From assembly GCA_016783545.1 (NCBI GenBank), contig JADHWJ010000004.1:27513-91512 (forward strand): a stretch of 64,000 nt of DNA. The letters are read 5' to 3'. Positions within the stretch are counted from its first letter, which is position 1, and every line of letters begins with the position of its first letter. This DNA comes from Candidatus Aenigmatarchaeota archaeon (GTDB taxonomy: Archaea; Aenigmatarchaeota; Aenigmatarchaeia; QMZP01). Below are positions 6,420-63,998 of this stretch, one piece after another. The translations under genes were made by a program, and so were the position numbers. Under the pieces are notes generated by a model. It did not search any database, had not been told where the DNA came from, and was given only the letters and a program-made list of their open reading frames with translations.

Positions 6420-6709
6420 GGGCTCGTAGCTCAGCTTGGTCTAGAGTGTCGAACGTCTCTAAGGTCACGTCCCAGTAGACGTGCATAGGTCTTATAAGGC
6501 CAACCAGGCTAACCTGGAAACAGACTAGCTTTGGCTAGTTGGTTATCTGGCGTAGAAGCCGAAGAAGCTTTAACCTTACGGGGTTTTAGTTGCGGAAGTC
6601 CTGGGTTCAAACTGGAACGCGGGGGCACATCCCCCTCATTCCTAAGGTTCCTCTGATCCCCCTGAAATTCAGGTAAGATTGGAAGAATATGAAAATCCCA
6701 GCGAGCCCA
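6420..6709 (+). tRNA. intron-containing tRNA, isotype unresolved (about 290-nt locus)
   Basis: 5' GGGCTCG-TA-GCTCAGCTTGGTCTAGAGT (acceptor plus D-arm). 3' CTGGG-TTCAAA[84-nt insert]T-CCCAG-CGAGCCC-A (T-arm plus acceptor). About 150 nt of structured sequence lies between the D-arm and the variable region. I could not fold an anticodon arm unambiguously. Confidence 0.6.
6612..6695 (+). other. T-loop intron of the unassigned tRNA (weaker member of the two-hairpin intron family)
   Basis: Interrupts TTCAAA|T. It contains hairpins GGGGG-CACAT-CCCCC and CCTGA-AAT-TCAGG in the same order as the introns at 56813-56892 and 50622-50719. Confidence 0.5.
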
Positions 6710-19949: not shown

Positions 19950-19960
19950 ATTGATGACTT

Positions 19961-21034: not shown

Positions 21035-21093
21035 CAAAGTAGAAAAAATCATAGCATAAAACCATTTATTTAATCTCAAAACAATAATATTAT

Positions 21094-22768: not shown

Positions 22769-22817
22769 ATAAATAATAAGTAAGAGCAAATGTAATTATA
22801 TTGTACATGGTGTTGAA

Positions 22818-23741
22818 ATGAAAGTTGAAATTAAAAATGGCTATATACATTTGAAAAACAAAGACGATCCTGTATATATAGTACTTCACACAGGACCCAA
22901 TTATAGCCTGCCAACAATAAGGGATACTAATTCAGATACTGTTGCAAGCCTTTGCTGGAAAAAGACAGGCGGAAGATTATTACTCTCTACAATGGCAAGA
23001 AATCCGTTGATAGGTGTTGATTTGAATAGGGAGGTACCTGATAAAAAAACCGCAATCAAAGAATGGAAAAACGCAGTAAATGAAAATGTTGTTGATTTCA
23101 AGAAGGTCTATGGGATGGTTGCGAAGAATGAAAAGGATTATGAAAAAAGAATAATGCTGTATAAGAATTTCTGGAAAATAGCAAAATCAACAGGAAAGCA
23201 TTTTATACTTTTGCATACACAGGATTTGAGAATAGGCAACTATCCAAGTCTTTTTGATATAGTAACTTTCGATGGAATAGGTATTAAGAAAGAAAGAACA
23301 ATGGAAATAATAAAAAAATTAAATAAAAAGTTCAGGAGAGAATTTTCCAATCTGGAAAATAATTTTAAAACGCGTTTGCTGGCATCTGCTAATTCAATAG
23401 AAACTGATAAAATGCTGAATAACACTGATGCATATGCGGAGTGGTTTGAAAGAGATACAGGTGTTATAAGAAAATATGGTGATAAAAATATTGTTAAGAG
23501 ATTGGAGAATAGCATAACAAAAGAGAATTTCATCAGGGCTGTTGAAAATGTTTTGAAAAAAGACATACCCCTGAAAATAACACTGGAACAGAATTTCTGG
23601 GGAGCAAAAGCATTTGCCCCTAAAAAGGAGCTCATAGGTAAAAACAGAAAAGTTGTTGAGATAGAAGTCAATGGATTCTTGAATAATTCATATCCAGAAC
23701 TGGTTGCAGACGTATTGGTTGAATTCGTTAAGATGCTATAA
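22818..23741 (+). CDS. FGase-like putative metallo-amidohydrolase, paralog 2
   Basis: YIVLHTGPNY...DTNSDTVA...ARNPLIGVDLNRE. Also YKNFWKIAK, FILLHTQ and PSLFDIVTF. Confidence 0.4.
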   Translation: MKVEIKNGYIHLKNKDDPVYIVLHTGPNYSLPTIRDTNSDTVASLCWKKTGGRLLLSTMARNPLIGVDLNREVPDKKTAIKEWKNAVNENVVDFKKVYGMVAKNEKDYEKRIMLYKNFWKIAKSTGKHFILLHTQDLRIGNYPSLFDIVTFDGIGIKKERTMEIIKKLNKKFRREFSNLENNFKTRLLASANSIETDKMLNNTDAYAEWFERDTGVIRKYGDKNIVKRLENSITKENFIRAVENVLKKDIPLKITLEQNFWGAKAFAPKKELIGKNRKVVEIEVNGFLNNSYPELVADVLVEFVKML

Positions 23742-23767
23742 TTTGGTTAATTCTAGAAGATAATTGT

Positions 23768-24655
23768 TTATAACATTTCACTAAAGTTCTCTATTACTTT
23801 TACGCATTTCTCTGCTCTTTTCTTGATTTTGTTTTCAATCTCTCCTGGAACTTCTTTAACAACACCACCAAGGCTTATGTTTGTCACAGGACTTTCAGAA
23901 ACCCTTAGCATAGAACCTATATATTTTCCGCCGACAACAAATGCCCTAAGGTCCCAATAATCGCCTTTCATTTTCTTTATGTTGACAATTTTTTGCAGAA
24001 GATATGGCTTCTTTATTTCAATGTTATCTATCTTGCTAATATCTTTGACTATGCGAATGCCACTGCCCTTTTCTCCAGTAGTTGGTTTAAGAACGAAACC
24101 CTTCTTGAACATCCTCTCATTTTCTTTCAGAGCCCTTTCCACATTACTCATATTCTTTACAAGAAAACTTGTGGGTGATCTTATGAATGCATTCCTTATC
24201 GCAAGGTAGCTTAGCCATTTATTTCTTGTAACCCTTATGACTTCGGGTGAGTTAATTTCAATTACATTCTCTGGGTTGTATTTGAACAAGGGTTTTCTTC
24301 TTAATAATGAATCAGCTTTTATTATGTTACCATCAATATCAACAAGTTTCGCCGAGTTTCTTTTGATTGATTTTTCATTCTCTTTGATGAGACAAATATG
24401 TACATCAAGTTTCTTTAGCCCATTTTTAATAAGGTTTATTGAAGTTTCGGTTTTCAGATAACGTTTTGGTGTTAGAAGTACAATATTTTCACATTTCCTT
24501 TTCTTTAGATATTTTTCAAGTGTTTTCACTGGTTTGATATTCTTGTATAATTCATGCCATATGAATATACCAGGAAATGAGTTGGCCTCTAAAAAGTATG
24601 GCCTCATTTCTTTATCGAATATAAAATCCAATCCAGCAAAGCTAAATTTATTCAT
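23768..24655 (-). CDS. circularly permuted ATP-grasp ligase (paralog B)
   Basis: N-terminal AGLDFIFDKEMRPYFLEANSFPG. It continues with TRNKWLSY, FVLKPTTGEKGSGI, YLLQKIV, WDLRAFVVGGK and VTNISLGG, and ends without a C-terminal Mg-site strand. Confidence 0.55.
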   Translation of the reverse strand: MNKFSFAGLDFIFDKEMRPYFLEANSFPGIFIWHELYKNIKPVKTLEKYLKKRKCENIVLLTPKRYLKTETSINLIKNGLKKLDVHICLIKENEKSIKRNSAKLVDIDGNIIKADSLLRRKPLFKYNPENVIEINSPEVIRVTRNKWLSYLAIRNAFIRSPTSFLVKNMSNVERALKENERMFKKGFVLKPTTGEKGSGIRIVKDISKIDNIEIKKPYLLQKIVNIKKMKGDYWDLRAFVVGGKYIGSMLRVSESPVTNISLGGVVKEVPGEIENKIKKRAEKCVKVIENFSEML

Positions 24656-35621: not shown

Positions 35622-35732
35622 TGGGCTCGGAGAGGTCTTCGGCTTTGCTGAAGGCAAGTGCCTTAGCACAACGATCGAACTCCCGGCCTCCACGTTATCA
35701 GCGTGGCGTTCTAACCACTGAACTACGAGCCC
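35622..35732 (-). tRNA. tRNA-Ile(GAU) with ~38-nt intron at the T-loop/T-stem junction
   Basis: GGGCTCG-TA-GTTC-AGTGGTTA-GAAC-G-CCACG-CTGATAA-CGTGG-AGGCC-GGGAG-TTCGATC-[GTTGTGC...GAAGAC]-CTCTC-CGAGCCC-A. Confidence 0.8.
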
Positions 35733-35768: not shown

Positions 35769-35873
35769 CGCCCCCGCTGGGATTTGAATTCCTGAATAAC
35801 TTGTTGACCAAATTATTTCCCAGGTCCCAGGCTCGAGAAGCCTGAATGCTTAACCAGACTACACCACGGGGGC
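35769..35873 (-). tRNA. tRNA-Glu(CUC) with 30-nt intron between T-stem and T-loop (53/54)
   Basis: GCCCCCG-TG-GTGT-AGTCTGGTTAA-GCAT-T-CAGGC-TTCTCGA-GCCTG-GGAC-CTGGG-[AAATAATTTGGTCAACAAGTTATTCAGGAA]-TTCAAAT-CCCAG-CGGGGGC-G. Confidence 0.8.
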
Positions 35874-41487: not shown

Positions 41488-41607
41488 AGGGCAAGGCCCT
41501 TATAGTGGGATAACAAATTTATCAGGAGGAGGTTTATAAGGGGGCAAGGCCCTTATAGTGGGATAACAAATTTATCAGGAGGAGGTTTATAAGGGGGCAA
41601 GGCCCTT
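41488..41607. repeat. 53-bp direct tandem repeat, ~2.3 copies
   Basis: The unit GGGCAAGGCCCTTATAGTGGGATAACAAATTTATCAGGAGGAGGTTTATAAGG repeats with period 53 (GCAAGG at 41491, 41544, 41597). It lies between the convergent S15 and surface-protein genes. Confidence 0.85.
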
Positions 41608-42430
41608 ATTTTGGTTTAAAAGAATACTTTGAATCATCTTTTTTTTCTGATTTAACTTTTTCTGACTTTAGTTTTGGTACATTAAGTTTAAGCTTAGGGA
41701 ATTTAAGAAATTTCTTTCCCCGAGTAAATGCAAAGAAAATAAGCAAACCCACAACAAATCCTATTCCAAAAAATGTTGGTTGAGTGGCAGTTAATTTCCC
41801 TGTTATTTCACCAAGATGTTGTTTTTCTGTTTCAAGCACTTCTTTTTCACCGCTCAGGTCAGATATCCTACCAGTTAAATCATTAACTTTTCTTTCGAGT
41901 TCTGTCTTTTCTGTATTCAGGGATTCATATTTTGATTTGTATTGCTCTATGTCATCTATTCTACTGCTGAGATTTGTTCTCATGCTATTGATTATGTTCT
42001 CAAGCTCATATTTCAGATTGGATATTTCTGCATTTACATTAGCCAGGCTTTGAAGATTCTCAACTTCATTTATAGATAATGTAACCTTGATATCAAGGTC
42101 AGCAAGCTTGACATTATTCGCATTAATCTGTGTAGTATATGTTCCCACACCAACATCCGATGGAACCGCTACTTTAACATTAACATATGTTGGAACATAC
42201 GCAAGTATATTTGTACTATAATTTGAATTTCCCTCGAATGTCACCCAGCTATTTGGGGAAGTAAATGTGATTGTTTGGGTTGTATTTTCTGTGTTCTGCA
42301 CAACCAACGCATAATTATAATCAGTTCCTTTTTCAATAGTTATTGACATGTCAGGAGTTGGGGTTGATAGGGCATAAACGCTGTTAATCAGTAGCAGAAA
42401 AGCGAAAACACCGAAAAATACCGATTTCAT
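41606..42430 (-). CDS. surface-anchored protein: signal peptide, beta-rich domain, coiled coil, C-terminal TM and Lys-rich tail
   Basis: MKSVFFGVFAFLLLINSVYA signal. Coiled-coil segment (LENIINSMR...LERKVNDLTGRISDLSGEKEVLE). TM FFGIGFVVGLLIFFAF. Confidence 0.45.
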   Translation of the reverse strand: MKSVFFGVFAFLLLINSVYALSTPTPDMSITIEKGTDYNYALVVQNTENTTQTITFTSPNSWVTFEGNSNYSTNILAYVPTYVNVKVAVPSDVGVGTYTTQINANNVKLADLDIKVTLSINEVENLQSLANVNAEISNLKYELENIINSMRTNLSSRIDDIEQYKSKYESLNTEKTELERKVNDLTGRISDLSGEKEVLETEKQHLGEITGKLTATQPTFFGIGFVVGLLIFFAFTRGKKFLKFPKLKLNVPKLKSEKVKSEKKDDSKYSFKPK

Positions 42431-42522: not shown

Positions 42523-44139
42523 ATGGAAGCCGCAAAAAAACAGAGATTATCGAAATTAGTTGAATATCTGGAAAACATTAAAGGTAGGCATACCGAACTG
42601 GTTACAGTCTATATACCAAGCGGATACAATATAAATAAAGTCGCTGAGCAATTGAGACAAGAACAGAGCACAGCACAAAACATAAAAAGTAAGGCCGTGA
42701 GAAAGAATGTTTTGTCTGCATTGGAAAAAATATTACAACATCTAAAACTCTACAGACAAACACCTGCAAACGGACTGGCTATATTCTGCGGTAATGTTTC
42801 TGAGAAAGACGGCACTGCTGATATTGAAATGTGGGCAATTGAGCCACCAGAATCAGTTAAACTAAGACTTTATAGATGCGATCAGAATTTCATTCTGGAC
42901 CATCTTAGAGATATGGTGAGAGAAAAAGAAATATACGGACTCGTTGTGATAGACAAATCAGATGCTGAAGTAGGGCTTCTGAAGGGAAAGAAAATAGAAC
43001 CCCTTAAACATTCTGAGAGTAATGTTCCTGGAAAAACAAAGGCCGGTGGGTGGTGTGTACATGAAAAAACCAATATAGAAACAAACAGCCAAACGATCGT
43101 TGATAAACTAAAAGAAGGTGATAAAATAAAATCATTTGATTTTGAAAATAAAAGAATAGTAAAATCCTTCTGCAAAAGAAAATTTTCAAGGAAATCTAAA
43201 GTAGCATATAAAATTGGAATAAGATATTCAAAGCTTATGGTTACAGGAGAACATTTATTTTTTCTATCATTTGACAAAAAAACAAAACCAGCGGATTGTT
43301 TGGAAATCGGAGATAATGTTTTATTCTATGATGGGTTCAAAGTTGAGAGGGAAAAAATCACTTCAATAAAAAAAATCAAAAATCCAAAAGGCCTTTTCTT
43401 TGATTTGGAAGTCCCAAATTACCAAAGTTTTATGGCAAATGGCTTCATTCTTCACAATTCACAGGCCAGATACCAACGAATCCGTGAGAACATGCTTAAT
43501 GATTTTCTGAGAAAAGTTGGTGAGATTGTAAATTCAAAGTTCAAAGAGATGAGAGACCTAAAAGGCATAATAATAGGAGGTCCTGCTGGAGTAAAAGAGC
43601 AGTTTGCTGAGGGAAAATATCTTGAGCCTCCAATCAAGAAAAAAATCATAGGTATTGTTGATACATCGTATACAGGCGAACCTGGGTTAAAAGAACTTAT
43701 TGAACGATCAGACGAGCTGATTTCAGAGGCATCTGCGATAAGAGAGAACAAAATACTAGAGAGGTTCTTTGGAGAGCTTGCAACTGATGGCCTGGCTGTT
43801 TATGGATTTGTAGAGACAATAGAAGCACTGAAAAATGGAAATGTTGAGATGCTTTTGCTCTCAGAGAGCTTTGACTGGGTAAAAGCAAAGCTTGAATGTC
43901 CTAAGTGTGGCGGAGGTGCAGAGGTTGAGGAAAAGGAAGAATTCCTTAAAGACGAGAGATGTTCTAATTGCAAGTCAGCAATGACGGTTGTTGCAAAAGC
44001 AGAGCTTATCGATGAAATGATAAAACTTGCTGAACAGATGGGTTCTGATGTTGAGATGATTTCTGATGAAAGTCCAAGAGGTATTCAGGTAAAAGAACTT
44101 GGTGGGATAGCTGGAATCTTAAGATATAAGACGGAGTAG
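42523..44139 (+). CDS. prf1: peptide chain release factor aRF1, interrupted by a mini-intein
   Basis: aRF1 collinearity (NIKS-region AQNIKSKAVRKN; GG...SQARYQRIRE; C-terminal domain). 538 aa minus the 135-aa intein gives 403 aa. Confidence 0.85.
   Translation: MEAAKKQRLSKLVEYLENIKGRHTELVTVYIPSGYNINKVAEQLRQEQSTAQNIKSKAVRKNVLSALEKILQHLKLYRQTPANGLAIFCGNVSEKDGTADIEMWAIEPPESVKLRLYRCDQNFILDHLRDMVREKEIYGLVVIDKSDAEVGLLKGKKIEPLKHSESNVPGKTKAGGWCVHEKTNIETNSQTIVDKLKEGDKIKSFDFENKRIVKSFCKRKFSRKSKVAYKIGIRYSKLMVTGEHLFFLSFDKKTKPADCLEIGDNVLFYDGFKVEREKITSIKKIKNPKGLFFDLEVPNYQSFMANGFILHNSQARYQRIRENMLNDFLRKVGEIVNSKFKEMRDLKGIIIGGPAGVKEQFAEGKYLEPPIKKKIIGIVDTSYTGEPGLKELIERSDELISEASAIRENKILERFFGELATDGLAVYGFVETIEALKNGNVEMLLLSESFDWVKAKLECPKCGGGAEVEEKEEFLKDERCSNCKSAMTVVAKAELIDEMIKLAEQMGSDVEMISDESPRGIQVKELGGIAGILRYKTE
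43054..43458 (+). mobile_element. mini-intein (135 aa, no endonuclease domain) in the aRF1 GGQ loop
   Basis: Starts with Cys (CVHEKT). Block B LMVTGEH (TxxH). Block F FFDLEVPNYQSFMANG. Block G FILHN followed by Ser+1. Confidence 0.7.
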
Positions 44140-50069: not shown

Positions 50070-50225
50070 TGCGGGGGATGCGATCTTCTGCTCTGCTGAA
50101 GGTATGTGCTTCAGCACAGTATTCGAACACATGGAGGCACTAAGCCACTGGGTCCTAAACTTAGCCTTGTGATAATACATAATATTAACACAATCCAGCC
50201 CCTTTGACCACTTGGGTACCCCCGC
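50070..50225 (-). tRNA. tRNA-Leu(UAG) with two introns (anticodon stem ~30/31, and T-loop/T-stem junction)
   Basis: GCGGGGG-TA-CCC-AAGTGGTCAAA-GGG-G-CTGG[34 nt]G-TTTAGGA-CCCAG-TGGCTTAGTGCCTCC-ATGTG-TTCGAAT-[38 nt]-CGCAT-CCCCCGC-A. The long variable arm fits Leu. Confidence 0.65.
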
Positions 50226-50254
50226 GATAGTTGATACTATTTTTTTGCGGTTAA

Positions 50255-50455
50255 CGCTCCCGCGGGGATTTGAACCCCGGTTTCCAGCAAGTATTCTCCG
50301 AGAAGAATACTCCTCTCCGGGTATTTTCGCTCACGGAACCCTTTTCGAGGCTTCCGCCATCGCCCAAAAGCGTTCACGGAAAACCCTTTCAAAGGTTCTC
50401 ACTTTTTTCGAAGCTCGAAAACCCGGCATACTTGACCAGGCTATACTACGGGAGC
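50255..50455 (-). tRNA. tRNA-Glu(UUC) with two introns (canonical 37/38, ~93 nt; variable region, ~33 nt)
   Basis: GCTCCCG-TA-GTAT-AGCCTGGTCAA-GTAT-G-CCGGG-TTTTCG[93 nt]A-CCCGG-AGA[hairpin GAGTATTCT..AGAATACT..]C-CGGGG-TTCAAAT-CCCCG-CGGGAGC-G. Confidence 0.7.
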
Positions 50456-50498
50456 ATATTGTTAATTATATTATTTCTTTTAAAAATAAGTTTAAATA

Positions 50499-50734
50499 TG
50501 GGCTCGGCCGGATTTATGGACCGACTGAACAAAGCCCAGTCTAGTTATCGAACCGGCGATCCCCGCCAAATTGATACAAAAACGATCTGTTATTGTAACG
50601 TCAAGGCGATGTCATAGCCAATGTCCGCGTTCTTTGATTACTAACCGCTTATACAACTCCTTTCATTATGAAAGGGGTGATAGTGCGGTAAGAGGGGGAA
50701 TCTGTCACCCTCTTGCGCTCTAGACCACGAGCCC
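50499..50734 (-). tRNA. tRNA-Val(GAC) with three introns (D-loop 98 nt, canonical 37/38 ~29 nt, T-loop ~34 nt)
   Basis: GGGCTCG-TG-GTCTAG[98 nt]TTGGCTATGAC-A-TCGCC-TTGACG[29 nt]T-GGCGG-GGATC-GCCGG-TTCGA[34 nt]AT-CCGGC-CGAGCCC-A. Confidence 0.7.
50622..50719 (-). other. D-loop intron of tRNA-Val carrying the conserved two-hairpin module
   Basis: AGCGC-AAGAGGG..CCCTCTT-ACCGCACTATCAC-CCTTTC-ATAAT-GAAAGG-AGTTGTATAAG. Aligns with the tRNA-Pro T-loop intron. Confidence 0.7.
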
Positions 50735-54559: not shown

Positions 54560-54575
54560 TGGACCCGTAGCTCAG
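54560..54575 (+). repeat. orphan copy of the tRNA-Arg 5' end (TGGACCCGTAGCTCAG), left direct repeat
   Basis: Exact 16-nt match to 55714-55729. The two copies bracket the LAGLIDADG-like ORF. Confidence 0.8.
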
Positions 54576-54608
54576 TTTATTTTTTATATATGAAATTGAA
54601 TTAATAAT

Positions 54609-55724
54609 ATGAGAGTAAAGCTAATTGGTAATAAACAGAACGAGTTCTTGAAAAAAGTCTTAACCAATATTCCTCAAAAGGAATTAGCTAAACAACTTGG
54701 AGTATCTAGAAGTTGTATTCGTAAATGGTTGCGCTCTGATAGGTTATTACCAGATCATGTATTCAAAAGATTATGTGATGATTATAAATTGCAAGAATAT
54801 AGAAAATATGTTTTAGAGCGACTTGAAGATAATTGGGGACAAGTAACTGGTGGTAGAGAAAAAATAAAAAACGTGAAAGATATCAATAAATTAATGGAAG
54901 TGGTTAGAAAAAGTAGAATATCTTCTAAAGTTATTCATATTAAAAAAGTTAATACGAAAACAAAATTTGGTTTAGATGTGAAAAAAATGAATCTTGATCC
55001 GACACCTTTGATCATTGTAATGTTACTGACTGATGGTTGTGTTCATATAAAAAAGACATGTGCAGAGATAGTATTTATATCAAAAAGTAATGAATTAATT
55101 GATATTTTTTTGGAACTTGTAAGAATGAAATATGATGATGTAAAAATAAGTTTATATGAAAATAAAAAATCTATTAAAAAAGTGTATTTTTTTCTACCTT
55201 TAAGAAATGAACTAGTTACTATCATACAATCTTACAAAAAATCACCTTGTGGTGAAGGGATTACAAATTATCTTAAAAAGTCCCAACCAACATTGAATTT
55301 TCTTATGAATTTAAATGAAATTTATAAAGTTTTGAGTCTAAGATTGGCATTTACAACTGAAGGGTGTATTACAATGGCGAAATATAATCGTCGAAGTGAA
55401 TTGGTAATAAAACCAAAACTTATAATAGCATGTTCGCATCCTAAACTTTGTATGGGATGGAAAAAGATACTAGAACAATTTGGGTTAAAGTTTAGTGTAA
55501 TGAAGGATAATAGTAAATGGAGTGGTATATCAGGTCTTTGTTCTGAGAATCAAAAAAATATACACAAGTTTTATAAAATGGGGGGTTTTATAAGAAATGT
55601 TAAAATAACAGGAAAAAGTAAGTATTTTAAAGGAATAGAAAAAAATAAGTTATTAGAAGTATTTGTGAGAAGAAAGAAGTTTAAAAGTATAAATGAGATA
55701 AATAAAGTGTTGATGGACCCGTAG
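54609..55724 (+). CDS. LAGLIDADG-like double-motif homing endonuclease candidate with N-terminal HTH
   Basis: HTH IPQKELAKQLGVSRSCIRKWL. Motifs IIVMLLTDGCV and LRLAFTTEGCI lie ~110 aa apart. The stop codon TAG lies inside the tRNA-Arg acceptor/D region (CCG-TAG-CTC). Confidence 0.5.
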   Translation: MRVKLIGNKQNEFLKKVLTNIPQKELAKQLGVSRSCIRKWLRSDRLLPDHVFKRLCDDYKLQEYRKYVLERLEDNWGQVTGGREKIKNVKDINKLMEVVRKSRISSKVIHIKKVNTKTKFGLDVKKMNLDPTPLIIVMLLTDGCVHIKKTCAEIVFISKSNELIDIFLELVRMKYDDVKISLYENKKSIKKVYFFLPLRNELVTIIQSYKKSPCGEGITNYLKKSQPTLNFLMNLNEIYKVLSLRLAFTTEGCITMAKYNRRSELVIKPKLIIACSHPKLCMGWKKILEQFGLKFSVMKDNSKWSGISGLCSENQKNIHKFYKMGGFIRNVKITGKSKYFKGIEKNKLLEVFVRRKKFKSINEINKVLMDP

Positions 55725-55729
55725 CTCAG
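55714..55729 (+). repeat. right direct repeat (functional 5' end of tRNA-Arg)
   Basis: TGGACCCGTAGCTCAG, identical to 54560-54575. Confidence 0.8.
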
Positions 55730-55953
55730 GATATTTCTCCATAAAAAACAATTTTAAAATAATATGGCGAAATATGAGCAGTTGGATTAGAGCACCAGAC
55801 TTCTAATTATAGAAGTTTCGAGAATCCTGGAAAGGGTTCTGTGAGAAGAAATCTGGGGGTCGAGGGTTCGAGAGACCCTTTTTCAAAAAAGCGTCTACAG
55901 AAAAGGAGCTGACGCTTCCAATGAGAAAGGCTCAGAAAACCCCTCCGGGCCCA
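55715..55953 (+). tRNA. tRNA-Arg(UCU) with three introns (D-loop ~51 nt, canonical 37/38 ~45 nt, T-loop ~66 nt)
   Basis: GGACCCG-TA-GCTC-AG[51 nt]GTTGGATTA-GAGC-A-CCAGA-CTTCTA[45 nt]A-TCTGG-GGGTC-GAGGG-TTCGA[66 nt]AC-CCCTC-CGGGCCC-A. There is an A3:C70 mismatch in the acceptor stem. Confidence 0.7.
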
Positions 55954-56798: not shown

Positions 56799-57015
56799 TG
56801 GGGCTACCCGGATTTTCACCTTTACATAATCTCCTTTGAAACTCAAAGGGATGATAGTACGGTAAGAAGGGAAATGTGTTCCCTTCTTGCGTTTTGAACC
56901 GGGGTCTGAAGCATTCCAGTTTCTCAGGCTTTTGGCCTGAAGACCTTTTGATGGAAGCGAAGCCCCAAAAGGTCTTCCCCATGCTCCAATGCTAAACCAA
57001 ACTACACTATAGCCC
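56799..57015 (-). tRNA. tRNA-Pro(GGG) (tentative) with two introns (anticodon loop ~63 nt, T-loop 80 nt)
   Basis: GGGGCTA-TA-GTGT-AGTTTGGTTTA-GCAT-T-GGAGC-ATGGGG[63 nt]T-GCTTC-AGAC-CCCGG-TTCAAA[80 nt]T-CCGGG-TAGCCCC-A. The alternative GGA reading was rejected because there is no long variable arm. Confidence 0.6.
56813..56892 (-). other. T-loop intron of tRNA-Pro carrying the conserved two-hairpin module
   Basis: ACGC-AAGAAGGGA-ACACATT-TCCCTTCTT-ACCGTACTATCAT-CCTTTGA-GTT-TCAAAGG-AGATTATGTAAAG. Confidence 0.7.
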
Positions 57016-57022
57016 CATAAAA

Positions 57023-58582
57023 TTAGATTTGTTTTAATAATTTATTTACTTTTTCCCTTCCAATTGCAATAATAAATGGTGCTAATCTCGGACCTTTCTC
57101 CTTTCCTATTAGAACCGTGTAAGCAGCCCTGAAGAAATCTTGTGGTGCCAATTCATTCTTTTTTGTTATATCCCAGAATTGGTTGTAAAGCTTTTCCTCT
57201 GTAATTGGTTTTTCCAAGAGCTTTCCCAGGTCTTTTAATGCATTTTTCTCAGATTTTGACAGCCCTGAAGCATCAGCCTTTTCTTTTATCTCAAATTTAT
57301 ATTTATCTGGTGCGTGGTTTTCCAGCCAGAATTTTGCATTTTCAATTATCTGTCTGCACCTGTTTTTATCATATTCTGTTTTTGCACCCCAATCCAAAAT
57401 ACCCCTTTTAATAGCATTTTCAGTGTCAAAAATATTTACAAGTGTTGCAGCATGTCTAAAGCTTGGCTGCACTGGCATACTTTTCTGAGGCCTGTCTATG
57501 CAAGACATTTCATACACCCTTGACCAATGCATTTTATCCCTTTTTGAAACATCTTCTTTTCCAAAGTATATTCTCTCTGTCTTATAAAAATCTTCATATA
57601 TCTTTATCACATCTTCATCAAAACTAAATGCAAACTCTTTTACTGGTTTTGTTCCTGCAAAGAAAAATCTCGCTATCTCAGGTAGATAGACATTCAATAC
57701 ATCATTTAGTGTTATAACATTTCCTATTGAGCTTGACATCTTTCCACCAGCTCCCTTGATAATCACATAGTCATACATCTGATAGACAGGTGGTTCTGAA
57801 CCATAAACTGATTTTATTATCTCAATCCCAACAGTTCTGGAGCCTCCTGGTGTTGAATGTTCTTTTCCTGCTGGTTCAAAGTCAACTTTTTCATGATCCC
57901 ATCGCATTGGCCAGTCAACTCTCCATTGAAGCTTTGCGATTCCTTTTTCCCTGAAATCAAATGAGCTTTCAAACCCACATTCACATCTGTAGCTTAGCTT
58001 ATATTTTCCATCCCAATCAGTAACTGATGCTTCTTCTTTTCCGCATTTTTCACAATAAATTCTTACAGGATTCCATTCATCAGAAAGTGGGTCTTTCCTG
58101 TATTTATTCAGTATTTTCCTTATAGTGTCTTTATTTTCCAAAGCCTTTTTAATACTTTCAGCATATGCACATTTTTTGTACATTTCGTTTTGCTTTATAA
58201 ATTCTGGATTAACCCCTATTTTTGGCAGAACTTCTTCTACTGCCTTTTCAAAATGTTCTGCATATGACTTATGGCAACCAAATGGGTCTGGTGTGAGAAC
58301 GATCGGCTTTAAGAGATATTTTTCCAATTCCTTTGCTTTTGGCATGTTTTTTGGTACTTTCCTCAATCTATCATAATCGTCCCAAGAATAGATAAATCTT
58401 ACTTTTGCACCAGTGTCCTTTAGGGCTCTTGCTGCAATATCAACTGTAAGTATTTCCCTACAATTGCCTATATGTATTACACCAGAGGGAGTTATTCCAG
58501 CAGCAACTGTATATATTTTCTTTTTCCCCTTCTCGGCTATAACCCTATCTGCAATTTGATCAGCCCAAAATAATCTTTCCAT
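57023..58582 (-). CDS. lysK: lysyl-tRNA synthetase, class I
   Basis: PSGVIHIGN (HIGH) and KMSSSIGN (KMSKS). 519 aa, archaeal class I LysRS architecture. Confidence 0.9.
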   Translation of the reverse strand: MERLFWADQIADRVIAEKGKKKIYTVAAGITPSGVIHIGNCREILTVDIAARALKDTGAKVRFIYSWDDYDRLRKVPKNMPKAKELEKYLLKPIVLTPDPFGCHKSYAEHFEKAVEEVLPKIGVNPEFIKQNEMYKKCAYAESIKKALENKDTIRKILNKYRKDPLSDEWNPVRIYCEKCGKEEASVTDWDGKYKLSYRCECGFESSFDFREKGIAKLQWRVDWPMRWDHEKVDFEPAGKEHSTPGGSRTVGIEIIKSVYGSEPPVYQMYDYVIIKGAGGKMSSSIGNVITLNDVLNVYLPEIARFFFAGTKPVKEFAFSFDEDVIKIYEDFYKTERIYFGKEDVSKRDKMHWSRVYEMSCIDRPQKSMPVQPSFRHAATLVNIFDTENAIKRGILDWGAKTEYDKNRCRQIIENAKFWLENHAPDKYKFEIKEKADASGLSKSEKNALKDLGKLLEKPITEEKLYNQFWDITKKNELAPQDFFRAAYTVLIGKEKGPRLAPFIIAIGREKVNKLLKQI

Positions 58583-61063: not shown

Positions 61064-61588
61064 ATGATAGCGGTTTTAAGGCTTGGTCATCGTCCATTTA
61101 GGGACAGTCGTGTGTCCACACACTGTGCTTTAATAGCACGTGCTTTTGGAGCAGATAAATTAATCTATTCTGGGGAACATGACCAAAAATTAGAGGATTC
61201 TATAAACAAAGTCACAGATAACTGGGGCGGACCTTTCAAGATAGAACACACCAAATCAGCTTTGAAAACCATAAAAGATTTCAAGAAAAAAAACTTTAAG
61301 ATATGCCACTTAACAGTTTATGGATTACCTATACAAAATGAAATTGGGAAAATAAGAAAATATAAGAATATTTTGATTATTATTGGCGGGAGCAAAGTTC
61401 CAGGGGAAATATATCAGCTAGCTGACTTTAATATTGGAGTGACTCAGCAACCCCACTCAGAAATGGGAAGCCTTTGCATATTTCTTGATAGATATTTTGA
61501 AGGGAAGGAATTAAATAATAAATTCAATGGATGGAAAATGAAAGTTATACCAAACGAAAATAAAAAAATAATAGAAAAAAAGAAATAA
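61064..61588 (+). CDS. trm56: tRNA (cytidine56-2'-O)-methyltransferase aTrm56
   Basis: VLRLGHRPFRDSRVSTHCALIARAFGADK, and SPOUT C-terminal region IIGG.KVP. Confidence 0.75.
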   Translation: MIAVLRLGHRPFRDSRVSTHCALIARAFGADKLIYSGEHDQKLEDSINKVTDNWGGPFKIEHTKSALKTIKDFKKKNFKICHLTVYGLPIQNEIGKIRKYKNILIIIGGSKVPGEIYQLADFNIGVTQQPHSEMGSLCIFLDRYFEGKELNNKFNGWKMKVIPNENKKIIEKKK

Positions 61589-62989
61589 TTATTTTTTTGT
61601 CCAAAAAACTTTACCTTTTCTAATATTTTTATTTACATGTCCCTTTCTATATATAGAATTCAGTATTCTTGATGCAGATGACTTATTTATCTTGAGTTTT
61701 TCAGCAATTCCTTTGGAATAAATCCCTAATTCAATATTATCTAAGACTTCTTTGTCTCTTTTTGTTAGAATTTTCTTTTTTCCCAACAATTCTTCAAATT
61801 CATATTTATATTCTATTTTTAATTTATTTAGATTCGACTCTATAGAATCTATTTTATTATATCTATAATTTATTAAACCAAATAAAAAATACAATAACTT
61901 TTTTGGAAACATTTCTAATAAACCGTATTCATATACTTTAAGATAATTCTCAATTCCCTGAATTACAAAATATCCTCCTGTTCCTCTTTTCCAGCCTCTT
62001 TTTCTTGCATCTTCATTTGAAACACTGTGGTTAATAAACCCGGTTTTAATTCCTATAAAATTGAGCATATTAATATAATATTCCCTCTCTTTTGGCGATG
62101 AAACACCAATAGAAATATAATTTATATAATTATTAGGAGCTAAGTTTACACTAGATTCTGCTGCAAATAATCCCTTAAAAAAAGATTTTGTGAATTCTTC
62201 ATTTGAAGGTATATTATCTTTCTTAATAATTTCCAGAATATTTTGAAATATAAATCTTAAAAATGTGTCATAATATTTTATAGATAAAGAACCAAAATCA
62301 ACTGTTGTTCTGTATCTTTTATCTAACATTATTTTGACAAACTGTGTTTTTTTAATACCCACATTTCTAATCCAGTATCTCAAAGATTCTTTTTTTAACC
62401 TTTCAATATTATTTTCATCTTTTATATTTAGTATTATCTGAGATAGGAGTCTATCTTTAGGTATAAATTTCAATAAAATCTTCATTGCCTTTTTTATTAA
62501 TATTGGCTGAGAATTTGTAAAACTGATATAATGCCTACTTTTACCTCTCATAGATTTTATCATTTCGCCATCTAACAGACCCAGACCTTCACAAAGTTCA
62601 TTATCTATACGGATGTTTTTAGGTAAGACTAGAAAATTTATTTTATTGTTTTTGGTGATGTACCAAATACCTAGTTTTCCTTCAGGTATCCTGAAATAGA
62701 GTATGCCATCCTTGATTTTAAAACTATTGGGAATGAAATCATATTTCCATACAGAACGAATTAAACCAAATTCTGATACAAGTTTATAGTACTTTTTGTA
62801 TTTTACTTTTCCCCATGTTTTTATCTGTTTTTCATGTAATTCTAGTTTTGGGTATCTGGGAACAGATTTTTTCCATTTCATTATAGGTATCCATAAATAA
62901 CTGAAATTTATTTTTTCTATATTACTCTTATTTAACATTTTCTTTGGTATCTTCATGATTAAATCTTCAATTAGTTCATCTTCGCACAT
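61589..62989 (-). CDS. LAGLIDADG-like endonuclease candidate with C-terminal HTH
   Basis: Motifs GLGLLDGEM and FFKGLFAAESSV lie ~135 aa apart. C-terminal HTH KGIAEKLKINKSSASRILNSIYRKG. Abuts the trm56 stop. Confidence 0.4.
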   Translation of the reverse strand: MCEDELIEDLIMKIPKKMLNKSNIEKINFSYLWIPIMKWKKSVPRYPKLELHEKQIKTWGKVKYKKYYKLVSEFGLIRSVWKYDFIPNSFKIKDGILYFRIPEGKLGIWYITKNNKINFLVLPKNIRIDNELCEGLGLLDGEMIKSMRGKSRHYISFTNSQPILIKKAMKILLKFIPKDRLLSQIILNIKDENNIERLKKESLRYWIRNVGIKKTQFVKIMLDKRYRTTVDFGSLSIKYYDTFLRFIFQNILEIIKKDNIPSNEEFTKSFFKGLFAAESSVNLAPNNYINYISIGVSSPKEREYYINMLNFIGIKTGFINHSVSNEDARKRGWKRGTGGYFVIQGIENYLKVYEYGLLEMFPKKLLYFLFGLINYRYNKIDSIESNLNKLKIEYKYEFEELLGKKKILTKRDKEVLDNIELGIYSKGIAEKLKINKSSASRILNSIYRKGHVNKNIRKGKVFWTKK

Positions 62990-63071: not shown

Positions 63072-63998
63072 ATGGATGAAAAGATTAAACAAAAATTAGA
63101 GAATCAGCAGTATAGAATAGTAGGTAATCATAGTGCTGTAAAAATTTGTAATTGGACTAAAAAATCTTTAATAGACAATGGTGAGTGTTATAAATCCAAA
63201 TTTTATTCAATACCAACACACCGCTGTTGCCAGATGACACCTTCAATGTTTTGCCCGAACAAATGCCAATTTTGCTGGAGATCAATTGAACATTTTAATG
63301 CAGTAAAACTTTCAAAGTCAGATGAACCAAAAGATATAGTTGATGGTTGTATAGAGGGTCAGAGACATCTTCTGAATGGGTTTCCTGGTAATACAGAAAT
63401 CAATATGGAAAAGTTCAAAGAAGCACAAGAACCAACAAACTTTGCTATCAGCTTATCGGGTGAACCAACTATCTATTCAAAACTAGATGGTTTGATAGAA
63501 GAGCTTAACAAAAGAAAAAAGTTTTCTTTTCTGGTTACAAACGGACAGTTTCCAGAAAGACTTGAAAAACTAGAATCCTTACCAACACAGCTATATGTTT
63601 CCTTGGATGCACCAACAAAAGAACTCTACCAAAAAATAGATAGACCAAGTCTCAAAGATTTCTGGGAAAGGTTCAACAAAACTCTGGAACTCCTTCCAAC
63701 ACTAGATACAAGAAAGGTTCTGAGACTAACAGCTGTCAAAGGTCTAAATATGACAAAGGTAGAAGAGTATGCCAAGCTCATAGAAAAAGCTAATGTAGAC
63801 TGGATTGAGATAAAGGCCTATATGTGGGTAGGTGAAAGTAGAAATCGTCTGAAAGAAGAGAACATGCCAACCCACAATGATATTCAAGAATTTTCAAAAC
63901 AAATCGCTGAAAAAATTGAAATGGATATAATAGACGAACAGAAAGAAAGTAGAGTCTGCCTTTTAGCTGAAAAAGATTCTAGGGAGAGATTCCTGTGA
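63072..63998 (+). CDS. taw1: tRNA 4-demethylwyosine synthase Taw1 (TYW1, radical SAM)
   Basis: HSAVKICNWTKKSL...CYK..FY.I..HRC.QMTPS..CPNKCQFCWR cluster motifs. SLSGEPT. Confidence 0.8.
   Translation: MDEKIKQKLENQQYRIVGNHSAVKICNWTKKSLIDNGECYKSKFYSIPTHRCCQMTPSMFCPNKCQFCWRSIEHFNAVKLSKSDEPKDIVDGCIEGQRHLLNGFPGNTEINMEKFKEAQEPTNFAISLSGEPTIYSKLDGLIEELNKRKKFSFLVTNGQFPERLEKLESLPTQLYVSLDAPTKELYQKIDRPSLKDFWERFNKTLELLPTLDTRKVLRLTAVKGLNMTKVEEYAKLIEKANVDWIEIKAYMWVGESRNRLKEENMPTHNDIQEFSKQIAEKIEMDIIDEQKESRVCLLAEKDSRERFL

What the first reader, a model, noticed from the sequence alone, without database searches (positions are those of the whole stretch)
50070..50734. Three adjacent tRNAs carry seven introns, and every tRNA in the window is interrupted
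tRNA-Leu(UAG), tRNA-Glu(UUC) and tRNA-Val(GAC) lie head-to-tail within 665 nt. Together they carry introns in the anticodon stem, T-arm junction, canonical 37/38 site (twice), variable region, D-loop and T-loop. With tRNA-Ile, tRNA-Glu(CUC), tRNA-Arg, tRNA-Pro and the unassigned tRNA, 8 of 8 tRNA genes in 64 kb are intron-containing, and I count at least 16 introns. Such density and positional diversity of non-canonical introns is best known from Thermoproteales. Here it occurs in an AT-rich small-genome archaeon. It implies a broad-specificity splicing endonuclease, and it means standard tRNA finders would miss or mis-call most of these genes. The ORF track indeed calls spurious ORFs across them.
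Basis: seen in the sequence. Interest (0 to 1): 0.6.

Follow-up and report, generated by a model that had tools for sequence, protein, structure and literature searches.

The report
Heavily interrupted tRNA genes in DPANN archaeon
All eight tRNA genes in this stretch of an AT-rich DPANN archaeon are broken up by at least 17 archaeal-type introns, several belonging to related, apparently mobile families, which is an extreme example of a known phenomenon, not a new one.

Summary
On the minus strand, 50070-50734 holds tRNA-Val(GAC), tRNA-Glu(UUC) and tRNA-Leu(UAG) head to tail. They carry seven introns at 15/16, 37/38 and 59/60 (Val), 37/38 and 45/46 (Glu), and 30/31 and 59/60 (Leu).

Five more tRNA genes in the window are also interrupted, and I found no uninterrupted tRNA. 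That gives 14 well-defined introns in seven genes, plus at least 3 in an eighth gene I could not resolve.

- After in-silico splicing, ARAGORN accepts all seven resolved genes.
- Spliced Val aligns without gaps to an uninterrupted Val gene in the closest relative.
- Of 18 junction pairs, 10 have a strict bulge-helix-bulge motif and 6 a relaxed one. Random junctions give 0.5% and 2%.

The organism is a DPANN archaeon whose closest named relatives are Aenigmatarchaeota. Its relatives also carry interrupted tRNAs, but at different sites.

Three intron families recur between different tRNAs. One has a conserved 17-nt core and sits in the T-loop of tRNA genes in at least five other archaeal assemblies.

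Splicing itself is inferred. I found no RNA data, and the window holds no splicing endonuclease gene.

Multi-intron tRNA genes, non-canonical positions and transposing intron families are already known, from Thermoproteales, Asgard archaea and some DPANN. I rate this a new, unusually dense member of a known kind.

The parts
50499..50734 (-). tRNA-Val(GAC) gene, 236 nt, mature 73 nt, three introns
   Evidence: The spliced product is accepted by ARAGORN. It aligns without gaps, 59/68 identical, to the uninterrupted Val(GAC) of relative L001.
50621..50719 (-). Val intron at 15/16 (D-loop), 99 nt; member of intron family A
   Evidence: Central helix 4/4 paired, inner helix 3 bp, no outer helix, so a relaxed motif. 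About 75% identical over 70 nt to the Pro 59/60 intron, z = 19.6.
50569..50598 (-). Val intron at 37/38, 30 nt
   Evidence: Strict hBHBh' motif: central helix 4/4, outer helix 5 bp, inner helix 5 bp.
50513..50546 (-). Val intron at 59/60 (T-loop), 34 nt; no recognisable BHB
   Evidence: The register is fixed by the gapless alignment to L001: T-loop TTCGATT here, TTCAATT there. The central helix is only 2/4 paired; both splice sites lie in an internal loop between the T-stem and an intron hairpin.
50255..50455 (-). tRNA-Glu(UUC) gene, 201 nt, mature 75 nt, two introns
   Evidence: ARAGORN accepts the spliced product. It is 61/75 identical to the spliced Glu(UUC) of relative L002, which has introns at the same 37/38 and 45/46 sites.
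50323..50415 (-). Glu(UUC) intron at 37/38, 93 nt; intron family C
   Evidence: Strict BHB: central helix 4/4, outer 5 bp, inner 4 bp. Homologous to the Arg 37/38 intron (z = 6.6) and to the L002 Glu 37/38 intron.
50342..50387 (-). 46-nt element nested inside the Glu 37/38 intron, with its own strict BHB
   Evidence: Central helix 4/4, outer 5 bp, inner 8 bp. It is absent from the homologous introns of L002 Glu and window Arg. Its start repeats the sequence that follows it.
50282..50314 (-). Glu(UUC) intron at 45/46 (variable region), 33 nt
   Evidence: Central helix 4/4 (CCGG:CTGG). There is no contiguous flanking helix; an 8-bp hairpin starts after a mismatch. L002 Glu is interrupted at the same site.
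50070..50225 (-). tRNA-Leu(UAG) gene, 156 nt, mature 84 nt, two introns
   Evidence: ARAGORN accepts the spliced product. It is 70/84 identical, without gaps, to the spliced Leu of L001. tRNA-Leu contigs of other organisms lose similarity at 50121 and at 50158-50160, then continue as uninterrupted tRNA.
50161..50194 (-). Leu intron at 30/31 (anticodon stem), 34 nt
   Evidence: Strict BHB: central helix 4/4 with two G-U pairs, outer 3 bp, inner 5 bp.
50084..50121 (-). Leu intron at 59/60, 38 nt; intron family B
   Evidence: Central helix 3/4, outer helix 5 bp. 83% identical over 35 nt to the Ile(GAU) 59/60 intron, z = 13.
35769..35873 (-). tRNA-Glu(CUC) gene with one 30-nt intron at 53/54 (35789-35818)
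   Evidence: Strict BHB with a 9-bp inner helix. Blind BHB-guided splicing gives this product uniquely. Rfam tRNA score 36.6 bits.
35622..35732 (-). tRNA-Ile(GAU) gene with one 38-nt intron at 59/60 (35636-35673); family B
   Evidence: Strict BHB. Blind BHB-guided splicing gives this product uniquely.
55715..55953 (+). tRNA-Arg(UCU) gene. Introns at 15/16 (55730-55781, 52 nt), 37/38 (55806-55850, 45 nt, family C) and 59/60 (55873-55939, 67 nt)
   Evidence: Two strict BHBs and one relaxed. ARAGORN accepts the spliced product; the acceptor stem has an A3-C70 mismatch.
56799..57016 (-). tRNA-Pro(GGG) gene. Introns at 37/38 (56914-56976, 63 nt) and 59/60 (56813-56892, 80 nt, family A)
   Evidence: Both motifs are relaxed. 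ARAGORN accepts the spliced product. A Pro(UGG)-like contig in run X4 matches only the exons and the intron ends.
6420..6709 (+). Unassigned tRNA gene, 290 nt. Strict-BHB introns at 29/30 (6452-6488, 37 nt) and 59/60 (6612-6695, 84 nt). The middle, 6489-6611, is unresolved and must hold at least one more intron; it may be Ile(UAU)
   Evidence: The 5' acceptor and D-arm and the 3' T-arm and acceptor are clear. Relaxed BHB-guided splicing gives 5037 acceptable products, so the identity cannot be fixed. The sequence is identical in independent assemblies.
54560..55729 (+). LAGLIDADG-family ORF (54609-55724) bracketed by an exact 16-nt direct repeat, TGGACCCGTAGCTCAG (54560-54575 and 55714-55729). 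The repeat is the first exon of tRNA-Arg up to its 15/16 splice site
   Evidence: Homologues carry Pfam LAGLIDADG_3, and one is named a homing endonuclease. Two LAGLIDADG-like motifs, LLTDG and TEG, are conserved. Both junctions are present in independent assemblies.

Best explanation
These are functional, single-copy tRNA genes of a DPANN archaeon related to Aenigmatarchaeota, and each is interrupted by one to four archaeal protein-spliced introns.

Proposed mechanism (inferred, not shown):
- Each gene is transcribed as a long precursor.
- At each exon-intron boundary the RNA folds into a bulge-helix-bulge motif. A 4-bp helix forms between the last exon bases and the 3' part of the intron, with the two cut sites 2 nt downstream of each strand of that helix.
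- The tRNA splicing endonuclease EndA cuts both sites, and an RtcB-type ligase joins the exons.
- About a third of the junctions are relaxed, and one has no recognisable motif. The endonuclease must therefore tolerate relaxed motifs, as the (alpha-beta)2 and epsilon2 types and the loop-bearing alpha4 enzymes reported for DPANN do.

Shown here:
- The introns are not independent. At least three sequence families recur in different tRNAs, and once at different positions.
- One family is conserved in T-loop position 59/60 across several related genomes.
- Close relatives carry different intron sets.

From those three points I infer that introns are gained and lost quickly by a DNA-level copying process, as proposed for Thermoproteales.
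For: 1. **Cloverleaves.** Removing the 14 proposed introns gives seven tRNAs of 73-84 nt that ARAGORN accepts at default stringency with the expected anticodons.
2. **BHB geometry.** Of 18 junction pairs, 10 are strict and 6 relaxed. Random junctions of the same lengths in the same genes give 0.5% and 2.1%.
3. **Comparative evidence.**
   - Relative L001 (Nop5 73% identical) has Val(GAC) uninterrupted, next to Leu(UAG) and upstream of Nop5. Spliced window Val aligns to it without gaps, 59/68 identical.
   - Spliced Leu and Glu match relatives at 83% and 81%.
   - tRNA-Leu and tRNA-Pro contigs from other organisms or paralogues lose similarity at the predicted exon boundaries.
4. **Base composition.** Exons are 61% G+C, introns 41%, the window 34%.
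5. **No intact copies.** All 8 tRNA genes are interrupted and no uninterrupted copy exists in 64 kb. They must therefore be the working genes.
6. **Lineage-wide pattern.**
   - L002 has Glu(UUC) with three introns, and a Val(GAC)-like and a Val(CAC)-like gene with one each.
   - All Rfam tRNA hits in five relatives' loci contain insertions or are partial.
7. **Intron families.** Family A z = 19.6, B z = 13, C z = 6.6. The family A core lies in T-loop introns of at least five other archaeal assemblies with 34-57% G+C.
8. **Known positions.** 29/30, 30/31, 45/46, 53/54 and 59/60 are already reported for archaeal BHB introns (PMC4090602).
Against: - There is no RNA evidence. No RNA run holds this organism, so splicing is inferred.
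- No EndA or RtcB gene lies in the window.
- The Val 59/60 intron has no recognisable BHB. The Glu 45/46 intron has only the central 4-bp helix.
- One gene, 6420-6709, could not be resolved into a unique mature tRNA. It could be partly decayed.
- BHB rules plus ARAGORN alone do not fix the multi-intron solutions uniquely under relaxed rules. Those solutions rest also on homology and cloverleaf logic.
- tRNA-Arg has an A3-C70 mismatch in the acceptor stem.
Confidence: 0.85

Rival explanations
1. The insertions are primarily DNA-level mobile elements: small non-coding insertion sequences that carry or create BHB-forming ends. They persist in tRNA genes only because the host endonuclease can splice them out. 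On this view they are selfish parasites with no function of their own. This complements the main explanation rather than excluding it; the two differ on why the introns are there.
For: - Three sequence families are shared between unrelated tRNAs.
- Family A occurs at both 59/60 and 15/16, and in many tRNAs of other genomes. L081 holds two tandem units.
- Content turns over quickly between relatives.
- One element is nested inside another intron.
- Target sequence is duplicated directly at three insertions.
- Other selfish elements are present in the window: two LAGLIDADG-like ORFs and an intein-domain hit in aRF1.
Against: - No transposase, terminal inverted repeats or regular target-site duplications were identified.
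- The 17-nt core of family A is conserved across genomes with 34-57% G+C. That could equally reflect a function of the RNA.
- No mechanism of insertion is known, even in Thermoproteales (PMC4090602).
Confidence: 0.45
2. Some or all of these loci are decaying tRNA pseudogenes disrupted by insertions, and working copies lie elsewhere in the genome.
For: - The gene at 6420-6709 cannot be resolved into a unique tRNA.
- Val 59/60 lacks a BHB.
- Arg has an acceptor-stem mismatch.
Against: - All 8 genes are interrupted and none is intact in 64 kb.
- Exons keep near-intact cloverleaf pairing (one A3-C70 mismatch in Arg) and 61% G+C in a 34% G+C genome.
- Junctions are strongly enriched for BHB motifs.
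- Relatives show the same pattern.
- DPANN genomes generally carry single-copy tRNA genes (my own knowledge, not tested).
Confidence: 0.05
3. The interruptions are assembly or binning artefacts of a metagenome-assembled contig.
For: The window comes from a metagenome assembly.
Against: - Contigs from a second study (runs X2-X4, marine, 2024) match the tRNA loci and both ORF junctions 100%.
- The insertions have specific BHB structure.
Confidence: 0.01
4. The 1.2-kb stretch 54576-55781, which holds the LAGLIDADG ORF, is itself a giant D-loop intron of tRNA-Arg. It would use the upstream exon copy at 54561-54575 and so be an ORF-bearing BHB intron in a tRNA gene.
For: - The 16-nt repeat ends exactly at the 15/16 splice site.
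- By my reading of the sequence, the upstream copy can form the same 4-bp central helix, plus a 6-bp inner helix in a register shifted by one base, with the same 3' splice site.
- The ORF fills 92% of the interval.
- ORF-bearing BHB introns of this kind exist in archaeal rRNA genes (my own knowledge).
Against: - The downstream copy has the better TATA-like box at the usual distance, judged by eye.
- Homologous ORFs in other genomes sit beside or inside DUF763 genes, not tRNA genes.
- There is no RNA data.
Confidence: 0.15

Closest known systems
Multi-intron tRNA genes of Thermoproteales (Pyrobaculum, Thermofilum, Caldivirga). Sources: Sugahara 2008 and Fujishima 2010, as cited in PMC4090602 and PMC8450103
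   Same: [quoted passage not shown]
- Several introns per gene.
- Near-identical introns in unrelated tRNAs, read as intron transposition.
- Some motifs form only after another intron has been removed.
   Different: - The organism here is a mesophile-like, AT-rich DPANN archaeon, not a hyperthermophilic crenarchaeon.
- In this sample 8 of 8 genes are interrupted, at 2.1 or more introns per gene. Thermoproteales have about 70% of genes interrupted and 0.84 introns per gene on average. The record is 71 introns in 46 genes, about 1.5 per gene, in P. calidifontis (PMC8450103, PMC11291895).
- The intron families here are unrelated in sequence to those.
- There is a strong hot spot at T-loop 59/60, used in 6 of 8 genes.
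Asgard Atabeyarchaeia and Freyarchaeia tRNA genes (PMC11291895)
   Same: Nearly every tRNA gene is interrupted (92-95%). Many introns are non-canonical, and over half of the genes have several.
   Different: The superphylum is different, and I made no sequence comparison with those introns. Those figures come from complete genomes; mine come from 8 genes in one 64-kb window.
Disrupted tRNA genes of other DPANN archaea: ARMAN-2 / Ca. Micrarchaeum with epsilon2 EndA, Nanoarchaeum, and Pace-, Woese- and Nanohaloarchaea with loop-bearing alpha4 EndA (PMC3239211, PMC5829648)
   Same: Same superphylum and small genomes. Non-canonical and multiple introns are linked to broad-specificity endonucleases. 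Those authors expected that standard tools miss disrupted tRNA genes in DPANN genomes.
   Different: My two literature searches found no description of Aenigmatarchaeota-type tRNA genes. The endonuclease type here is unknown. The density is higher than I saw reported for those lineages.
Ectopic and multiple tRNA introns in the red alga Cyanidioschyzon merolae and in cryptophyte nucleomorphs (PMC3728597, PMC4090602)
   Same: Introns lie in the D-arm, anticodon arm and T-arm of one gene, with BHB-like junctions, in reduced genomes.
   Different: Those hosts are eukaryotes. Their introns are often very short (3-24 nt), and permuted genes occur. I found no permuted genes here.

Membership tests
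Archaeal protein-spliced (BHB) tRNA introns | The insertion interrupts a tRNA gene, and removing it restores a canonical cloverleaf | tested here: met
   All seven resolved genes are accepted by ARAGORN after splicing. Spliced Val aligns without gaps to an uninterrupted orthologue.
Archaeal protein-spliced (BHB) tRNA introns | A bulge-helix-bulge motif, strict 3-4-3 or relaxed, places both cut sites 2 nt 3' of each strand of a 4-bp helix | tested here: met
   Of 18 junction pairs, 10 are strict and 6 relaxed. Random junctions give 0.5% and 2.1%. There are two exceptions: Val 59/60 (central helix 2/4) and Glu 45/46 (central helix only).
Archaeal protein-spliced (BHB) tRNA introns | The intron is excised from RNA, giving a spliced mature tRNA and a released or circular intron | not testable with these tools
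   No RNA run could be listed for this organism.
Archaeal protein-spliced (BHB) tRNA introns | The genome encodes the splicing endonuclease EndA and an RtcB-type ligase | tested here: inconclusive
   No tRNA_int_endo or RtcB Pfam hit in any ORF of 100 aa or more in the window. phmmer with an M. jannaschii EndA sequence I recalled from memory also found nothing. The rest of the genome was not available.
Thermoproteales-type multi-intron tRNA genes with transposing intron families | Two or more introns per gene, including non-canonical positions | tested here: met
   Val has 3, Arg 3, Glu(UUC) 2, Leu 2, Pro 2, and the unassigned gene at least 3.
Thermoproteales-type multi-intron tRNA genes with transposing intron families | Closely similar introns occur in tRNAs of different identity | tested here: met
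   Val 15/16 resembles Pro 59/60. Leu 59/60 resembles Ile 59/60. Glu 37/38 resembles Arg 37/38.
Thermoproteales-type multi-intron tRNA genes with transposing intron families | The host belongs to Thermoproteales / TACK | tested here: not met
   Nop5 relatives and the genomes sharing intron family A are named Aenigmarchaeota/Aenigmatarchaeota, which are DPANN. The system works like the Thermoproteales one but is not a member of that clade.
Split or permuted tRNA genes | Exons lie at separate loci or in permuted order | tested here: not met
   All exons of the seven resolved genes are colinear within one locus. The duplicated first exon of tRNA-Arg at 54561-54575 is the only possible exception, and it is unresolved.
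Self-splicing group I or group II introns | A match to a catalytic intron RNA family | tested here: not met
   No such Rfam match in the window, at gathering score or at E up to 5. The introns are 30-99 nt long.
LAGLIDADG homing endonucleases (for ORF 54609-55724) | Two LAGLIDADG motifs with conserved acidic residues, and a Pfam LAGLIDADG match | tested here: inconclusive
   - The motifs LLTDG and TEG are conserved in the alignment with five homologues.
- Homologues carry PF14528, and one is named a homing endonuclease.
- The ORF itself hits only helix-turn-helix models in Pfam.
- I did not predict its structure.

The most novel reading that the evidence does not exclude
Genome-wide, this Aenigmatarchaeota-like lineage carries the heaviest tRNA intron load known: every gene interrupted, more than 2 introns per gene, and some genes above the reported archaeal maximum of three. 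The load is sustained by actively copying, sequence-conserved intron families. One of them, family A (core TTACCGYACTATCAYCC, preceded by a GCGCAAGARGGG hairpin), targets T-loop position 59/60 across genomes with 34-57% G+C and can jump to other sites. This would be a tractable natural system for working out how archaeal BHB introns move, possibly with the help of the LAGLIDADG genes found beside tRNA genes.
Probability: 0.4. Interest if true: 0.65.

Novelty: new member of a known kind. Interest (0 to 1): 0.5.

Why it matters
- **Annotation.** Standard annotation would report no or almost no tRNAs for this organism and would call false ORFs across them. Genome-completeness and codon-usage inferences for such DPANN genomes would then be wrong. 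Kaneta et al. (PMC5829648) raised the concern that newly sequenced DPANN genomes hide undetected disrupted tRNA genes.
- **Evolution.** A second, unrelated lineage with recurring intron families and fast intron turnover gives an independent test bed for how archaeal tRNA introns spread. That mechanism is still unknown (PMC4090602).
- **Enzyme specificity.** A junction without a recognisable BHB (Val 59/60), and junctions that keep only the central helix, set a concrete specificity requirement for the endonuclease of this lineage.
- **Genome economy.** In a reduced genome, 58% of the length of the seven resolved tRNA genes is intron. It is unclear why that load is tolerated or selected.

Tried and rejected
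- **RNA evidence.** Two searches for RNA runs, one with the tRNA cluster and one with the thermosome-subunit gene (Cpn60/TCP-1 family), listed nothing.
- **EndA in the window.** phmmer with an M. jannaschii EndA sequence I recalled from memory, plus Pfam scans of about 70 ORFs, found none.
- **Resolving the gene at 6420-6709.**
  - Contiguous and one-intron searches for an anticodon arm gave many candidates. The best were TAGGT or TCGGT / CTTATAA / ACCTG or ATCTG, which would be Ile(UAU).
  - Relaxed BHB-guided splicing gave 5037 products acceptable to ARAGORN, with almost every anticodon.
  - Strict-only splicing stopped at 106-114 nt.
  - Independent assemblies were identical and no orthologue turned up.
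  - I leave the gene unassigned.
- **Blind splicing as an objective test.** BHB rules plus ARAGORN give a unique answer for the two single-intron genes. Under relaxed rules the answer is not unique for Leu and Pro, and the Glu(UUC) solution is missed because its 45/46 intron fails the helix rule. One run timed out.
- **Intron-less or ORF-less alleles in the four DNA runs.** None were found.
- **Family A as a known RNA.** There was no Rfam match. No complementary target lies in the window. The nine viral-contig hits lack the family's other features and are chance matches. Most of the 89 genome-collection hits are also chance, as I would expect for a 17-mer in a collection of that size.
- **Link between the LAGLIDADG ORF and tRNA genes in other genomes.** Its homologues lie beside or inside DUF763 genes instead. 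The second LAGLIDADG-like ORF in the window is unrelated in sequence.
- **Exact look-up of the window's Nop5.** It failed because the recorded gene uses a different start codon.
Full report
**1. Observation**

Read on the minus strand, 50734-50070 contains three head-to-tail tRNA genes. Standard tools mostly miss them:
- ARAGORN in default mode finds no tRNA in the whole 64-kb window.
- ARAGORN with its intron option finds only tRNA-Glu(UUC). It models that gene as a 91-nt tRNA with one 112-nt intron, which is wrong.
- The Rfam tRNA model reaches its gathering score once, at 35676-35732, and gives a second match only in E-value mode.
- Mechanical ORFs 50212-50544 and 50270-50617 run over the cluster.

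**2. Anatomy**

I located the conserved tRNA blocks by eye and then let a script choose the splice register.

| Gene | Window coordinates (strand) | Introns: tRNA position, window coordinates (length) |
|---|---|---|
| Val(GAC) | 50734-50499 (-) | 15/16, 50719-50621 (99 nt); 37/38, 50598-50569 (30 nt); 59/60, 50546-50513 (34 nt) |
| Glu(UUC) | 50455-50255 (-) | 37/38, 50415-50323 (93 nt); 45/46, 50314-50282 (33 nt) |
| Leu(UAG) | 50225-50070 (-) | 30/31, 50194-50161 (34 nt); 59/60, 50121-50084 (38 nt) |
| Glu(CUC) | 35873-35769 (-) | 53/54 (30 nt) |
| Ile(GAU) | 35732-35622 (-) | 59/60 (38 nt) |
| Arg(UCU) | 55715-55953 (+) | 15/16 (52 nt); 37/38 (45 nt); 59/60 (67 nt) |
| Pro(GGG) | 57016-56799 (-) | 37/38 (63 nt); 59/60 (80 nt) |
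| unassigned | 6420-6709 (+) | 29/30 (37 nt); 59/60 (84 nt); 123-nt unresolved middle |

- That is 14 defined introns in seven genes, plus at least three in the eighth.
- The unresolved middle of the eighth gene must supply about 30 nt of exon, so it holds at least one more intron.
- Two acceptor-stem scans found no further tRNA genes, interrupted or not.
- Position 59/60 in the T-loop is used in six of the eight genes.

**3. Are they real introns?**

- *Cloverleaves.* The seven spliced sequences (73-84 nt) are all accepted by ARAGORN at default stringency with canonical cloverleaves.
- *Splice-site geometry.* I derived the geometry of the archaeal bulge-helix-bulge motif from the canonical 37/38 case. 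Each cut lies 2 nt 3' of one strand of a 4-bp helix. The two 3-nt bulges are staggered, and the central helix is flanked by an outer and an inner helix.
  - Of 18 junction pairs tested, 10 are strict (central helix 4/4, both flanking helices at least 2 bp). The 18 include a nested element and one tentative junction in the unassigned gene.
  - Six are relaxed and two fail.
  - Random junctions of the same lengths in the same genes are strict in 0.5% of cases and relaxed in 2.1%.
- *Base composition.* Exons are 61% G+C and introns 41%, in a 34% G+C window.

**4. Comparative evidence**

- The closest Nop5 homologue, 73% identical, lies on a 4.8-kb contig (L001). There, Val(GAC) and Leu(UAG) again sit directly upstream of Nop5.
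  - That Val gene is uninterrupted. My spliced Val aligns to it without a single gap, 59/68 identical. This also fixes the T-loop register: TTCGATT here, TTCAATT there.
  - Its Leu gene has introns at 37/38 and in the T-loop, not at 30/31.
  - There is no Glu(UUC) between the two genes.
- A more distant relative (L002, GCA_053536195.1, Nop5 56% identical) shows the same pattern:
  - Glu(UUC) has three introns: D-loop, 37/38 and 45/46. The last two sites are shared with the window.
  - A Val(GAC)-like gene has a D-loop intron.
  - A Val(CAC)-like gene has one intron.
- In the source metagenomes, tRNA-Leu contigs of other organisms match only the middle exon. They continue as uninterrupted tRNA exactly at my predicted boundaries.
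- A Pro(UGG)-like contig matches only the Pro exons and the ends of the T-loop intron.
- Contigs from a second study are 100% identical to the window across these loci, which rules out an assembly artefact.

**5. Honest limits of the in-silico splicing**

- A blind search that removes any BHB-like interval and then asks ARAGORN recovers the two single-intron genes uniquely.
- Under relaxed rules it gives several acceptable products for Leu and Pro. It misses my Glu(UUC) solution, because the 45/46 intron has only the central helix.
- For the unassigned gene it gives 5037 acceptable products. That gene stays unassigned. Ile(UAU) is my best guess.
- The multi-intron solutions therefore rest on BHB motifs, cloverleaf logic and homology together, not on any one of them.

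**6. Intron families**

An all-against-all comparison shows three families.

- *Family A:* Val 15/16 and Pro 59/60, about 75% identical over 70 nt, z = 19.6. By my reading of that alignment, differences in the two hairpins keep the pairing.
- *Family B:* Leu 59/60 and Ile 59/60, 83% identical over 35 nt, z = 13.
- *Family C:* Glu(UUC) 37/38 and Arg 37/38, z = 6.6. It also aligns with the Glu 37/38 intron of L002.

Relative to its two homologues, the window's Glu intron carries an extra 46-nt element (50342-50387). The element sits in the loop of the intron's hairpin and has its own strict BHB, so it is an intron-like element nested in an intron.

Family A extends beyond this genome:
- Its core, TTACCGYACTATCAYCC, is preceded by a GCGCAAGARGGG...CCCYCTT hairpin.
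- Exact-pattern scans found it in at least five other archaeal assemblies with 34-57% G+C.
- These include Candidatus Aenigmatarchaeota S146_145_esom (three contigs), an uncultured archaeon (two contigs) and several metagenome contigs.
- In nine tRNA-gene loci the family's 5' end directly follows the T-loop.
- In L081 two units lie in tandem in one intron of about 190 nt.

Family A matches no Rfam family. The copy in the Val D-loop is thus an ectopic member of a family that normally sits in the T-loop.

Taken together with the different intron sets of L001 and L002, this points to rapid gain and loss by copying. Fujishima et al. inferred the same for Thermoproteales (cited in PMC4090602).

**7. 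Organism and surroundings**

- The window encodes archaeal informational proteins: Nop5, aIF5A, TFB, RFC small subunit, RpoF, ribosomal proteins (uS2, uS15, uL18, eL19), a thermosome subunit and class I LysRS.
- It also encodes three tRNA-modification enzymes. Pus10 and aTrm56 act on the T-loop, and a Taw1-like enzyme acts on position 37.
- No EndA or RtcB was found in any ORF of 100 aa or more.
- Named Nop5 relatives are Aenigmarchaeota/Aenigmatarchaeota at 50-56% identity.

**8. Mechanism**

- *Shown:* gene structure, BHB motifs, intron families and turnover between relatives.
- *Inferred from established knowledge of archaeal tRNA splicing:* EndA cuts at the two bulges and an RtcB-type ligase joins the exons.
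- Six junctions are relaxed. Val 59/60 has no recognisable motif; both its sites lie in a 7 x 8 internal loop between the T-stem and an intron hairpin. The enzyme must therefore have broad specificity.
- Kaneta et al. report that DPANN lineages carry alpha4-type EndAs with an extra loop (L3), associated with increased tRNA disruption. They predicted undetected disrupted tRNA genes in such genomes (PMC5829648).

**9. Comparison with what is known**

- Non-canonical positions 29/30, 30/31, 45/46, 53/54 and 59/60, multiple introns and intron transposition are all described (PMC4090602).
- Archaeal tRNA genes are said to hold up to three introns. The record genome, P. calidifontis, has 71 introns in 46 genes. 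Thermoproteales average 0.84 introns per gene (PMC8450103).
- Atabeyarchaeia and Freyarchaeia have introns in 92-95% of their tRNA genes (PMC11291895).
- Here, 8 of 8 genes are interrupted, with at least 17 introns (2.1 or more per gene). That is at or above those figures, but the sample is only eight genes.
- My two full-text searches found no description of tRNA introns in Aenigmatarchaeota.
- I therefore file this as a new, extreme member of a known kind. The nested element, the conserved family A and the possible fourth intron in one gene are the parts worth following up.

**10. A side finding**

- Directly upstream of tRNA-Arg lies a 371-aa ORF (54609-55724). Its homologues are LAGLIDADG homing-endonuclease family proteins.
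- The ORF is bracketed by an exact 16-nt direct repeat that ends precisely at the 15/16 splice site of tRNA-Arg. Both junctions are confirmed in independent assemblies.
- There are two readings: a mobile gene inserted with duplication of the first exon, or an ORF-bearing giant intron. The data cannot decide between them.

Noticed in passing
window 54560-55729: A LAGLIDADG-family ORF (54609-55724) is bracketed by an exact 16-nt direct repeat, TGGACCCGTAGCTCAG. The repeat equals the first exon of tRNA-Arg and ends exactly at its 15/16 splice site. The ORF's stop codon TAG is U8-A9-G10 of the downstream tRNA, and L002 shows the same arrangement with a LAGLIDADG_3 ORF and tRNA-Glu.
   Followed up: partly
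window 50342-50387: A 46-nt element with its own strict BHB sits nested in the hairpin loop of the Glu(UUC) 37/38 intron. It is absent from the homologous introns of L002 Glu and window Arg. Its first 16 nt (AGGGTTTTCCGTGAAC) repeat the sequence that follows it (GGGTTCCGTGAGC).
   Followed up: partly
window 6512-6517 and 6545-6550: The unassigned tRNA gene holds two alternative 3' halves for the putative anticodon stem, ACCTGG and ATCTGG. One lies inside a strict-BHB interval. This may be another duplication made at an insertion.
   Followed up: partly
L081 about 2900-3100 (Aenigmatarchaeota S146_145_esom, contig WAQT01000006.1): A Val(UAC) gene has a T-loop intron of about 190 nt made of two tandem family A units. 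In L023 the family A hairpin carries a large extra insertion.
   Followed up: partly
run X4, 276-nt contig laid on window 56799-57023: A Pro(UGG)-like gene has no 37/38 intron. Its 59/60 mini-intron is about 24 nt and shares only its ends (ACG...GTGAAAA) with the window's 80-nt family A intron. It may be a paralogue in the same genome or a gene of a relative.
   Followed up: no
window 61589-62989 (-): A second LAGLIDADG_3-like ORF of 466 aa with a weak Pfam hit lies between aTrm56 and a Taw1-like gene. It is unrelated in sequence to the first one.
   Followed up: partly
window 42523-44139 (+): The aRF1 (peptide chain release factor) gene carries a hit to the intein splicing domain at residues 277-312, which suggests a mini-intein.
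   Followed up: no
window 2940-4109, 61064-61588, 63072-63998: Three tRNA-modification genes lie in the same window: Pus10 (pseudouridine 54/55), aTrm56 (2'-O-methyl C56) and a Taw1-like radical-SAM wyosine enzyme. Pus10 and aTrm56 act on the T-loop, beside the 59/60 intron hot spot, which raises the question of whether modification comes before or after splicing.
   Followed up: no
window 41489-41609: A perfect tandem repeat of a 53-nt unit, 2.3 copies, lies between the S15 gene and a coiled-coil ORF. Each unit contains a GGGCAAGGCCC hairpin.
   Followed up: no
window 55717 and 54563: tRNA-Arg(UCU) has an A3-C70 mismatch in the acceptor stem, and both copies of the first exon carry it. The related Arg gene in L010 has G3-C70.
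   Followed up: no
window 16208-24655: A run of five ATP-grasp genes (RimK and YheC/D types) and an F420-ligase-like gene suggests a peptide- or polyglutamate-ligation cluster.
   Followed up: no
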